From: Paraglomus brasilianum
Lineage: Eukaryota
NCBI GenBank assembly: GCA_910592345.1
Contig: CAJVPI010000075.1
Coordinates: 1 to 60,601, forward strand
Reading direction: 5' to 3'
Length of the DNA: 60,601 nucleotides
Shown here: positions 17,367 to 19,331 of the stretch, piece by piece
Position numbering within the stretch: the first letter of the stretch is position 1
Layout: every line of letters begins with the position of its first letter
Notes under the pieces: model-generated
Databases searched by the model: none
Told to the model about the DNA's origin: nothing
What the model saw: only the letters and a program-made list of their open reading frames with translations
Position numbers and translations under genes: made by a program

Positions 17367-19331
17367 ATGACAACCATACAGTCAGAATGCCCAAGATGTT
17401 TTTGTGAGGCCGATTCCATTACAGGCGTTACAAAATATAAGGAAGCGGTATTGAGAAGAGTGAAGAAGAACAATTCGAACTTCGGAAGATATTTTTACGG
17501 ATGCGAAAGACATGGCAGGAGCGACTGTCTTCCAGCATGTGATTTTTTCAAATGGGTGAATGCTGGTGATGGCGAAGGAGAGGCAGGACAATTACCTAAC
17601 CCTGTTCCAATTATGAATGGAAGAGCCAGTGTGGCAGCCGCACACCCTTTTAATACAATTAACGTAAATGACTTGAATAATGTCGTAACTGCCCGACCTA
17701 TTCTCCCCACAAATTACGATACACCTCTTACCGGGTCACTTTCAAACCCTTCTTGCGTTCCTTCGCTGGCTGCTGCAAACTCTCACTCTTTTCCATCCAA
17801 TCCTCCGTTGATACACACGCCTACATTATCATCTGTCGTACCAAACACAAATCTAGAACACACTCTGCTTTGTTACATTCGTAGGCAAGATCGGATTATT
17901 CTTGCAATGACAAAATCGAGGAACTTTATGCGTGACCACGCTGCAAATCTGGCAAAACAGCGAGACGAAAAGGAGAGAGAATATATCGAATTGCACAGAA
18001 AATGGACAAACTTGCAAGGAAAGTTGGGTGATCTGGATAGGCTCAATAGATCGTTGCCATCGCCCATAGAAAATTATAATTACGATAATGATTATGATTA
18101 CGATAAAGACGAAGACGAAGATGATAATGCCGATAACAAAATGAATTTTAGTTTATATGGGCTCGCCGATGACGCCAACATCAACATTACCGTTACTGAT
18201 ATCAGTAAGTTGGACCATATGGACAATATCAGCAGGACTGATTATACTGAAAAAGTTGATGCATTGGACATTCCTTCCAACGTTGTTCAAGACGACGATG
18301 TTACTACAACCATTGCACCACCACTTTTCCTTACACTCCCATCAACATCGACATTCGCAGCAGCATTTGGCAATCTCAACGAAAAATCCAAGACCACAGG
18401 GAACAATACACAACAGGATGTTGAAGTGGAGGGACAGGCGGGAGCCGGTTTGATCAAAATCGTCATGACAGGCACATACAATATTCGTCGCGTGTCAATT
18501 GATTCTAGTCTGCTTGAGGACAAGCACATACTGGAAGACTTTGTGATGGCTGCGTTCAATGATGCAAGGCGTAAATTCGGGACATCAACTGAAGAACCTT
18601 CAGAAAGTTTGTTGAGCCGTTCGCCACTATCACTGGGCTTCAAATCGCCGTTCTACAGAACGGAGCGGGAACAGCGGACGGAAGAATCTCGTCCTGCCTC
18701 ACTTGACAGGGAATATGAAGACTCTACAATCGTTAATTCACGATTGTCAATGTCCGCAGAGTTTGACAGTCTCAAGGAGAAAGTAAAATCCTTGGAAATA
18801 GAAAACGATAGTTTGAAGAAACGCGCCAAGAAACTCTGTTCCACCATAGAGTCAGAGAAAGAGTCACTTAAACAAACGAATTCGGACCTATTGGTCAAAG
18901 TGGATTTCCTTAAAACAACAAAAGGTCTTTTGACGACAAAACTTGAGGACTTAAATTCAAAAATAAGTTCGCTCGAGGAGGACAACGAGAAACTGAAAGC
19001 TCACGTAGATACACTTGAAGAAGAGAAAAAGAAGTGTAGGACGATATGTGAAGTGGATGTTGAAGAATTTAGAAAGCGGGCTATTGAAGCAGTCAGAAAA
19101 GCAGAGAGTTCGATAAACACGACTGCGTCACTGCAAGAAGAAATAGATGAACTGAAACTCAAGGTTCGCGAAGTGGAGGTAAAAAGAGATTGGTGGAGAG
19201 TACAAGCAGAAATAAAGGAGAAGGATAATGAATTGCTAAGAGATGAACGGGATTTTGCCCGTGAAATGGAAGAGAAGTATCTGAAGGAATTATTGGAATG
19301 GAAAACCAAGGCTACCGCAGGCGCGGCGTGA
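17367..19331 (+). CDS. Intronless 654-aa protein: GRF zinc finger + YbaB/EbfC-like domain + long coiled coil
   Basis: N-terminal CFC..NFGRYFYGC..CDFFKW (zf-GRF). Residues ~349-429 read EVEGQAGAGLIKIVMTG..RRVSIDSSLLED..LEDFVMAAFNDARRK..GFKSPF (YbaB-like). Residues ~465-650 are a heptad E/K-rich coiled coil. Confidence 0.88.
   Translation: MTTIQSECPRCFCEADSITGVTKYKEAVLRRVKKNNSNFGRYFYGCERHGRSDCLPACDFFKWVNAGDGEGEAGQLPNPVPIMNGRASVAAAHPFNTINVNDLNNVVTARPILPTNYDTPLTGSLSNPSCVPSLAAANSHSFPSNPPLIHTPTLSSVVPNTNLEHTLLCYIRRQDRIILAMTKSRNFMRDHAANLAKQRDEKEREYIELHRKWTNLQGKLGDLDRLNRSLPSPIENYNYDNDYDYDKDEDEDDNADNKMNFSLYGLADDANINITVTDISKLDHMDNISRTDYTEKVDALDIPSNVVQDDDVTTTIAPPLFLTLPSTSTFAAAFGNLNEKSKTTGNNTQQDVEVEGQAGAGLIKIVMTGTYNIRRVSIDSSLLEDKHILEDFVMAAFNDARRKFGTSTEEPSESLLSRSPLSLGFKSPFYRTEREQRTEESRPASLDREYEDSTIVNSRLSMSAEFDSLKEKVKSLEIENDSLKKRAKKLCSTIESEKESLKQTNSDLLVKVDFLKTTKGLLTTKLEDLNSKISSLEEDNEKLKAHVDTLEEEKKKCRTICEVDVEEFRKRAIEAVRKAESSINTTASLQEEIDELKLKVREVEVKRDWWRVQAEIKEKDNELLRDERDFAREMEEKYLKELLEWKTKATAGAA

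What the first reader, a model, noticed from the sequence alone, without database searches (positions are those of the whole stretch)
17367..19331. Novel architecture: zf-GRF + YbaB + long coiled coil, a candidate domesticated DNA-binding or bridging protein
Two nucleic-acid-binding modules of different origin are joined. GRF fingers bind ssDNA in APE2, NEIL3 and Top3a and are common in TE-derived genes. YbaB/EbfC is a dimeric DNA-binding 'tweezer'. They are linked by P/S-rich and acidic spacers, with a short coil (~residues 190-230) and a ~185-residue C-terminal coil. The ORF is intact and intronless over 1965 nt among intron-rich neighbours and sits in wide intergenic space, consistent with an inserted or assembled gene under selection. 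Inference: a chromatin/repair scaffold, or a factor acting on endosymbiont or organelle DNA.
Basis: partly seen in the sequence, partly recalled or inferred. Interest (0 to 1): 0.82.

Follow-up and report, generated by a model that had tools for sequence, protein, structure and literature searches.

The report
Fungal gene with captured bacterial domain
A root-symbiont fungus (Paraglomus) carries an intact, conserved gene in which three quarters of a bacterial DNA-packaging protein (YbaB) is fused between a zinc finger and long coils; the bacterial piece is predicted to have lost its DNA-gripping arms and likely now serves as a clasp that pairs two copies of the fungal protein.

Summary
In detail: a 654-aa ORF (17367-19331, +) with a GRF zinc finger, a YbaB/EbfC segment (aa 350-429) and long coils. 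The window is Paraglomus brasilianum by an identical named protein. Full-length relatives (81-84% identity) were found only in P. occultum and one unnamed metagenome lineage. It is not an assembly chimera: RNA-library contigs bridge both YbaB junctions. It is under purifying selection (dN/dS 0.24; YbaB part 0.35; one pair). The YbaB part is bacterial: 50-60% identical to mostly betaproteobacterial YbaB, running to the last bacterial residue, with a Tyr codon where the bacterial stop lies. Its best tree sister is an unnamed Paraburkholderia-like protein with the same LGFKSPF tail, which suggests an endobacterial donor, but AU tests do not reject other proteobacteria. The 'tweezer' reading fails: helix 1 is undetectable and the distal helix 2 is eroded, while the beta-sheet/helix base is kept and models as a homodimer. 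Best reading: a horizontally captured ybaB reused as a dimerization clasp in a fungal GRF/coiled-coil scaffold, with nucleic-acid binding left to the GRF finger. Post-transfer fusions are a known phenomenon in early-diverging fungi; this architecture was not found in my searches.

The parts
17367..19331 (+). 654-aa ORF, GRF - P/S linker - coil - acidic linker - YbaB segment - long coil
   Evidence: relatives P0002, P0003 at 84% and 81% aligned identity
17388..17561 (+). GRF zinc finger (aa 8-65; C11, C13, C46, C58; GRYF; FFKW)
   Evidence: Pfam PF06839 E 8e-5, under cut-off; NEIL3/APE2 structures; 57 of 66 residues identical in P. occultum
17565..17846 (+). Pro/Ser-rich linker (aa 67-160), predicted disordered
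   Evidence: pLDDT under 35; 69-75% identity with indels
17847..18053 (+). first long helix / coil (aa 161-229)
   Evidence: 84-89% identity, no indels
18028..18108 (+). in-frame 81-nt GT..AG stretch removed as an intron in the public model P0005 but read through in RNA contigs
   Evidence: X4 record 17 bridges it; kept in P0003, P0004
18057..18413 (+). acidic linker (aa 231-349, net charge -18); its last ~20 codons may be the eroded remnant of YbaB helix 1
   Evidence: DNA similarity to bacterial 5' ends weak, 4 of 10 comparisons p<0.05; none at protein level, p 0.12-0.44
18414..18575 (+). YbaB core: three beta strands and proximal helix 2 (aa 350-403), predicted dimer base; keeps N398-D399
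   Evidence: pLDDT over 90; 1PUG rmsd 0.8 over 60 columns; homodimer score 0.44 vs best control 0.01
18576..18623 (+). eroded distal helix 2, the tweezer arm (aa 404-419), with G405 and P411
   Evidence: 3 of 16 identical to Paraburkholderia YbaB in all three fungal rows, against 6-11 of 16 for 8 bacterial rows; pLDDT 48-57
18624..18656 (+). YbaB C-terminal tail PLSLGFKSPF, then TAC (Tyr430) where bacterial genes have their stop codon
   Evidence: LGFKSPF shared with 1 of 267 bacterial YbaB-like proteins held
18753..19328 (+). long C-terminal coiled coil (aa 463-654)
   Evidence: 82-91% identity
12206..15061 (+). upstream neighbour, CLF1-like splicing factor gene, many introns (context; family name recalled)
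   Evidence: GT..AG joints in RNA contigs
20091..20671 (-). downstream convergent neighbour, MBF1 (context)
   Evidence: spliced RNA contigs

Best explanation
This is an intact Paraglomus gene carrying an in-frame piece of a proteobacterial ybaB gene, likely captured from a Burkholderiaceae bacterium, and the piece is predicted to work as a dimerization clasp rather than as a DNA tweezer. Shown: the fusion is real, conserved and under purifying selection; the piece covers bacterial residues 27-108 and the frame runs on through a Tyr codon at the bacterial stop position. Inferred: ybaB DNA entered a fungal GRF/coiled-coil gene once, in an ancestor of the three lineages; both DNA-gripping arms then decayed while the beta-sheet/helix base stayed constrained. 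Predicted: two copies pair through this base and the long coils and so present two N-terminal GRF fingers, which would bind single-stranded nucleic acid as in APE2 and NEIL3, giving a bivalent, non-catalytic scaffold, probably nuclear. The endobacterial identity of the donor and the pathway served are not shown.
For: Real fusion: found in the window, P. occultum and an unnamed JGI lineage; RNA-library contigs with no differences bridge the 5' junction (X2 record 9, X1 record 1) and the 3' junction (X7 record 22). Selection: dN/dS 0.24 over 202 codons (Fisher p 1e-9), 0.35 over the 81 YbaB codons (p 0.0095); no indels in the YbaB part among the three lineages while the linkers have many; sites invariant among the fungi are more conserved in 44 diverse bacterial YbaB (Mann-Whitney p 0.013). 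Origin: 17 of the 18 taxon-named rows among the 120 listed hits are Betaproteobacteria; sister to P0040 (82% identical to Paraburkholderia YbaB) at 88/92 and 93/87; LGFKSPF in 1 of 267 bacterial proteins held. Arms lost, base kept. In EbfC dimerization and DNA binding are separable, N77 being needed for dimers and the helices for DNA (PMC2665219); the matching N398 is kept in 3 of 3. Homodimer model 0.44 vs best control 0.01; mark reached by 20 of 30 solved homodimers and 1 of 23 single chains; runs agree in at least 84% of contacts, pLDDT at least 56. GRF G-R motif needed for ssDNA binding in APE2 (PMC5861430) is kept as G40-R41.
Against: The dimer pass is just over the mark (0.42) and may come from likeness to solved YbaB dimers. 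Interface residues are hardly more invariant than the rest of the segment (17 of 22 vs 41 of 57). On the stem branch, retention of conserved columns was not significant (30 of 39 vs 24 of 40, p 0.15; rank test p 0.07). The YbaB part is no better conserved than the coils (78-85% vs 82-91%). AU tests do not reject grouping with alphaproteobacteria (p 0.32) or with gammaproteobacteria plus Rhodocyclaceae (p 0.45), and neither tree support is starred. No named endobacterial YbaB was on hand. dN/dS rests on one pair and omits the GRF. No listed RNA contig covers the GRF part or the whole ORF. No YbaB-less fungal paralogue was found, so the order of assembly is open.
Confidence: 0.5

Rival explanations
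1. The YbaB piece is a tolerated passenger: it landed in a disordered linker of a GRF/coiled-coil gene and is kept only because it must stay in frame and folded, while the function lies in the finger and the coils.
For: dN/dS in the YbaB part (0.35) is the highest of the four segments tested (0.12-0.35); 13 of 28 beta-sheet sites vary among the fungi; the stem branch is long (0.6-0.7 changes per site); the long coils could dimerize alone.
Against: No indels in the segment; 2 of 25 sites vary in aa 379-403 and 0 of 10 in the tail; fungal invariance follows bacterial conservation (p 0.013); dimer model passes.
Confidence: 0.25
2. The YbaB core works as a peptide-binding surface that recruits a partner protein, as the chloroplast homologue STIC2 binds the Alb3/Alb4 tail through its beta-sheet region.
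For: STIC2 precedent (PMC11480477, passages); YbaB-like folds also occur in trypanosome mitoribosomal proteins; the beta-sheet is what is kept here.
Against: The beta-sheet region is the most variable part of the segment among the fungi (13 of 28 sites); no transit peptide or membrane segment is evident; no partner is known. Not exclusive with dimerization.
Confidence: 0.12
3. The protein keeps YbaB-type DNA binding and bridges duplex DNA (tweezer) to single-stranded DNA (GRF), perhaps with the fungal helix at aa 327-343 standing in for helix 1.
For: D399 and K403 (EbfC D78, K82) are kept; the full-length model puts a low-confidence helix at 327-343; a review calls helix 2 the likely DNA contact in Caulobacter (PMC9610160, passages).
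Against: Every single helix mutant of EbfC lost DNA binding and a C-terminally truncated Caulobacter YbaB did too; helix 1 undetectable; distal arm 3 of 16 identical with G405/P411; segment net charge -3, next to a -18 linker.
Confidence: 0.08
4. The ORF is cargo of a mobile element, a decaying pseudogene, or an assembly or contamination chimera.
For: P. occultum holds a second, degraded copy of part of the coil (P0145, 68% over 60 aa); metagenome contig L001 shows that chimeras between this gene and endobacterial DNA can arise; no whole genome was held, so copy number is untested.
Against: Three lineages with the same junctions; RNA contigs bridge them; purifying selection; no terminal repeats in 14900-20200; no transposase family in 13 upstream frames scanned; no second copy in the window; no dnaX or recR remnant.
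Confidence: 0.05

Closest known systems
YbaB/EbfC nucleoid-associated proteins (PF02575, TIGR00103; E. coli 1PUG, H. influenzae 1J8B)
   Same: Beta1-3 plus proximal helix 2 and the C-terminal GFKxPF tail, 50-61% identical to proteobacterial members; same fold; predicted homodimer; N-D motif kept.
   Different: Not a free ~108-aa protein but an internal domain of a 654-aa fungal protein; helix 1 undetectable, distal helix 2 eroded; no dnaX/recR context.
Zf-GRF proteins (APE2, NEIL3; PF06839) and stand-alone ascomycete GRF proteins of 341-387 aa
   Same: Four-Cys GRF finger with G-R-x-F and F-F-x-W; N-terminal GRF resembles ascomycete GRF clusters by language-model features (0.85-0.86, a lead only).
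   Different: No nuclease, glycosylase or topoisomerase domain; a long loop after the second Cys; fused to YbaB; no sequence relative outside Paraglomus-like rows was found.
Plant plastid YbaB homologues (STIC2; rice LTA1 as cited in PMC9610160)
   Same: A YbaB domain in a eukaryote; STIC2 shows a non-DNA use of the beta-sheet base.
   Different: Those are chloroplast proteins; this is a fungal fusion of proteobacterial origin with no evident organelle targeting.
Post-transfer domain fusions in early-diverging fungi (100 of 829 xenologs, PMC11291939; bacterial-type domain in the Gigaspora NRPS-PKS, PMC7732545, listing only)
   Same: A bacterial domain fused into a fungal gene; Burkholderia-related endobacteria are known donors.
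   Different: Known cases are mostly enzymes or NLRs; here a nucleoid protein appears to be kept for its dimer base after loss of its functional arms; Paraglomus was not in that survey.

Membership tests
YbaB/EbfC nucleoid protein | Profile match above curated cut-off | tested here: met
   PF02575 55 bits vs 25.5; TIGR00103 61.9 vs 49.45
YbaB/EbfC nucleoid protein | Beta1-beta2-beta3-helix 2 base fold | tested here: met
   model core pLDDT over 90, built with a bacterial alignment; 1PUG rmsd 0.8; strands and helix also formed with the 4-row fungal alignment at low confidence
YbaB/EbfC nucleoid protein | N-terminal helix 1 (tweezer arm) | tested here: not met
   profile of 109 close YbaB aligns from position 27, 25 and 19 in the three rows; similarity no better than shuffles, p 0.12-0.44; pLDDT about 50
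YbaB/EbfC nucleoid protein | Long distal helix 2 (tweezer arm) | tested here: not met
   3 of 16 identical, G405 in all three rows, Pro at 407 or 411; helix ends at about aa 407 in the model
YbaB/EbfC nucleoid protein | Homodimer | tested here: inconclusive
   model 0.44 vs best control 0.01, at the mark, may be from likeness to solved dimers; N398 kept
YbaB/EbfC nucleoid protein | Binds duplex DNA | not testable with these tools
   needs EMSA
YbaB/EbfC nucleoid protein | Stand-alone small gene in dnaX-ybaB-recR context | tested here: not met
   internal to a 654-aa ORF; no dnaX or recR match in the window (best E 0.7); no DNA similarity past the stop position in 8 comparisons
Zf-GRF domain | Four zinc ligands with G-R-x-F and F-x-W motifs | tested here: met
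   C11, C13, C46, C58, GRYF, FFKW, all kept in P. occultum as GRFF/FFKW; Pfam score just under cut-off
Zf-GRF domain | Binds single-stranded nucleic acid | not testable with these tools
   G40-R41 kept; needs a binding assay
Transposon cargo or transposon gene | Terminal repeats or transposase in the flanks | tested here: not met
Transposon cargo or transposon gene | Many copies in the genome | tested here: inconclusive
   no genome held; one full copy per lineage in protein searches, one degraded partial paralogue in P. occultum
Xenolog from a Burkholderia-related endobacterium | Nests with named Mycoavidus/Glomeribacter/Mycetohabitans sequences | tested here: inconclusive
   sister P0040 is unnamed and Paraburkholderia-like; no named endobacterial row; AU tests do not reject other groups

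The most novel reading that the evidence does not exclude
The nucleoid protein of a Burkholderia-related endobacterium was domesticated in an early-branching arbuscular mycorrhizal lineage: its gene fused into a fungal zinc-finger gene, lost both DNA-gripping arms and became the clasp of a new bivalent nucleic-acid scaffold. The gene would be a molecular fossil of an old Paraglomus-Burkholderiaceae symbiosis and a clean case of a bacterial domain being kept for its dimer interface alone. An arm-less core could even poison the symbiont's own YbaB by mixed dimers, though nothing here shows export.
Probability: 0.25. Interest if true: 0.75.

Novelty: new variant of a known kind. Interest (0 to 1): 0.55.

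Why it matters
It is a dated, lineage-restricted example of how a new eukaryotic protein is built from a bacterial part: the junctions, the read-through of the old stop codon and the uneven decay (arms lost, dimer base kept) can all be read in the sequence, and each step is testable with small recombinant fragments. If the donor is an endobacterium, it extends the record of Burkholderia-related symbionts to Paraglomus, where Ca. Glomeribacter reads were only recently reported (bioRxiv 2023.07.25.550273, passages). Limits: horizontal transfer with domain fusion is already known to be common in these fungi, the gene seems confined to one small lineage, and no pathway can be named.

Tried and rejected
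No whole genome is held, so copy number and synteny in relatives stay untested. Genome scan with the YbaB segment gave 1 of 600 stretches, an Acidimicrobiales locus, useful only as outgroup. Search with the GRF region alone: 1 of 3 candidates, P0002; no YbaB-less paralogue, and proteins outside 220-1145 aa were covered only by the representative search. blastn of the YbaB DNA against plasmids and E. coli genomes: no match. P0040 could not be named. Atlas for whole P0002: no usable feature hit, one YbaB structure row. The low synonymous divergence at aa 378-430 (dS 0.15) is not significant (permutation p 0.39): rejected as a hidden DNA/RNA constraint; no Rfam match in 14800-20200. Helix 1 remnant: weak at DNA level (4 of 10 comparisons, simple shuffles; script stopped early), none at protein level. 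Bacterial DNA past the stop: 0 of 8 comparisons p<0.05. Raised GC3 of the segment (0.49 vs 0.41 for the ORF, 0.30-0.39 in six other ORFs) was not tested for significance, and the next linker has the same total GC. The full-length fold is low confidence (pLDDT 48, pTM 0.20) and was not used for a fold search. Lack of RNA cover over the GRF part is not evidence against its expression: contigs were short and shallow. Earlier findings: none.

Full report
Observation. The + strand holds one 654-aa ORF at 17367-19331. Pfam finds YbaB at aa 350-415 (E 9e-15, above cut-off) and a GRF finger at 25-65 (E 8e-5, just below cut-off); TIGR00103 agrees. E. coli and Haemophilus YbaB align over aa 350-429, to their last residue. 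The finger keeps four cysteines and the GRYF and FFKW motifs and aligns to NEIL3 and APE2 structures. A low-confidence model places long helices at 161-229 and 449-653. A named Paraglomus brasilianum protein (P0005) is identical over 627 residues and differs only by a 27-residue in-frame gap, which gives the organism.

Is it a real gene? A search with aa 1-500 gave 3 proteins among 7,994 candidates scored: P. occultum P0002, unnamed P0003, and P0004, a fragment identical to the window. Aligned identity is 84% and 81%. The unfiltered representative search gave 771 hits, 2 of them under 1e-30; of the 150 listed, 147 match only the YbaB stretch and one (P0145) is a degraded P. occultum copy of part of the coil. 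I laid 8 of 13 runs. X3 and X4 show spliced CLF1-like and MBF1 contigs, so they hold mRNA, and they cover parts of the ORF while the 2-kb upstream stretch has no real cover. Contigs with no differences bridge the 5' YbaB junction (X2 record 9, X1 record 1) and the 3' junction (X7 record 22). X4 record 17 reads through the annotated 81-nt intron. No listed contig covers the GRF part or the whole ORF. Against L001, Nei-Gojobori dN/dS is 0.24 over 202 codons and 0.35 over the 81 YbaB codons (p 0.0095); this is one pair and omits the GRF. Flanks show no terminal repeats, transposase families or RNA families.

Origin of the YbaB piece. The 120 best of 685 short hits are 50-60% identical; 17 of the 18 with a taxon name are Betaproteobacteria. 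The codon after F429 is TAC in the window and in L001, where 8 bacterial genes have TAA or TGA: the old stop appears to have been read through (inferred). No dnaX or recR remnant is in the window and no bacterial DNA follows the stop position. Trees used 80 columns: 73 rows (3 fungal, 11 named references, 26 of the 120 hits, 33 of the 147) and a 35-row subset. Both join the fungal clade to P0040, at 88/92 and 93/87, neither starred. P0040 is unnamed, 82% identical to Paraburkholderia YbaB, and the only one of 267 bacterial proteins held with the LGFKSPF tail. That Burkholderia-related endobacteria of Mucoromycota lie near Paraburkholderia is recalled; Ca. Glomeribacter reads were reported from Paraglomus spores (bioRxiv 2023.07.25.550273, passages; supplements not seen). 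AU tests do not reject alpha (p 0.32) or gamma plus Rhodocyclaceae (p 0.45) groupings. So: bacterial origin shown, Burkholderiaceae likely, endosymbiont possible.

What is left of the domain. A profile of 109 close YbaB aligns from about position 27 of 108; the preceding 28 residues score no better than shuffles. Identity to Paraburkholderia YbaB is 15-18 of 28 in the sheet, 17-18 of 25 in the proximal helix, 3 of 16 in the distal helix (bacteria as far as E. coli and Sphingomonas keep 6-9) and 7 of 10 in the tail. A model built with 60 bacterial rows has a core over pLDDT 90 and arms near 50 and matches 1PUG at rmsd 0.8. In Borrelia EbfC all nine single changes in the helices abolished DNA binding, and all but N77A still dimerized (PMC2665219, passages and section 18); a truncated Caulobacter YbaB did not bind (PMC8581549, passages). 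The matching N398 is kept in 3 of 3 rows. Sites invariant among the fungi are more conserved in bacteria (p 0.013), though the stem-branch test was not significant (p 0.07-0.15). Two copies of aa 325-432 model as a dimer through strand 3 and helix 2: 0.44 vs best control 0.01, the mark being reached by 20 of 30 solved homodimers and 1 of 23 single chains; runs agree in at least 84% of contacts, pLDDT at least 56; the pass may come from likeness to solved YbaB. Interface residues are 17 of 22 invariant against 41 of 57 elsewhere, no real enrichment.

Mechanism. Most likely (0.5) the protein is a dimeric, non-catalytic scaffold: YbaB base and coils pair two chains, and the GRF fingers bind single-stranded nucleic acid, as the G-R motif does in APE2 (PMC5861430, passages). 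K/R motifs at 30-34 and 484-489 and the lack of a hydrophobic segment fit a nuclear or cytosolic protein. Rivals: passenger domain (0.25), STIC2-like peptide binding (0.12; PMC11480477, passages), retained tweezer (0.08), mobile cargo or artefact (0.05).

Comparison and novelty. It is not a member of the YbaB nucleoid family: both arms and the gene context fail. It works, at most, like the dimer base of YbaB. Post-transfer fusion is known: 100 of 829 xenologs in 44 early-diverging fungi (PMC11291939, passages); its two held supplements contain no YbaB, EbfC, PF02575 or Paraglomus. A review names only a plant chloroplast case among eukaryotes and has no word beginning 'fung' (PMC9610160, passages); the P. 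occultum genome paper has no 'horizontal' (PMC9453076, passages; supplements not searched). Searches listed no paper on a fungal YbaB fusion; they cover open-licence papers only. Verdict: a real, lineage-restricted chimeric gene, a new variant of a known kind; interest 0.55.

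Noticed in passing
L001:1-1457: The fungal gene breaks off at about base 625 and the contig continues as low-GC (33%) DNA with an rpsP (S16) gene open only with TGA=Trp, as expected of a Moeniiplasma-like endobacterium (name recalled). Probably an assembly chimera at an A/G-rich word; a real junction was not excluded.
   Followed up: partly
window 2232-3312: Decayed Tc1/mariner element: inverted terminal arms of about 200 nt and broken transposase pieces (HTH_SB, HTH_Tnp_Tc3_2, WGDES motif) on the minus strand; 14 kb from the gene and unrelated to it.
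   Followed up: partly
window 19991-20103: MBF1 has a spliced 111-nt intron just past its stop codon, in the 3' UTR, seen in three runs; its transcript and that of the studied gene converge to within about 115 nt.
   Followed up: no
window 41461-41969 and 47260-47774: Two 68% identical copies, with a second pair at 42246-42418 and 47974-48149; one copy carries a polysaccharide deacetylase match, so likely tandem paralogues.
   Followed up: no
window 14945-15055: The CLF1-like gene ends in a Gln/Glu-rich 9-12 nt repeat, with two nearby splice acceptors used in different runs (14942, 14948).
   Followed up: no
P0145 (P. occultum 6313_t): Degraded partial copy of the coil region, 68% identical over 60 aa to P0002, on another contig.
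   Followed up: partly
P0126, P0149: Unnamed proteins of about 180 aa with two tandem YbaB units, which could be single-chain versions of the dimer or assembly duplications.
   Followed up: no
PDB chains 7ane_an, 7aor_an, 6hiw_DM, 6hiw_DK: Trypanosomatid mitoribosomal small-subunit proteins match the YbaB-core model (E 4e-4 to 5e-2), a possible second eukaryotic reuse of this fold.
   Followed up: no
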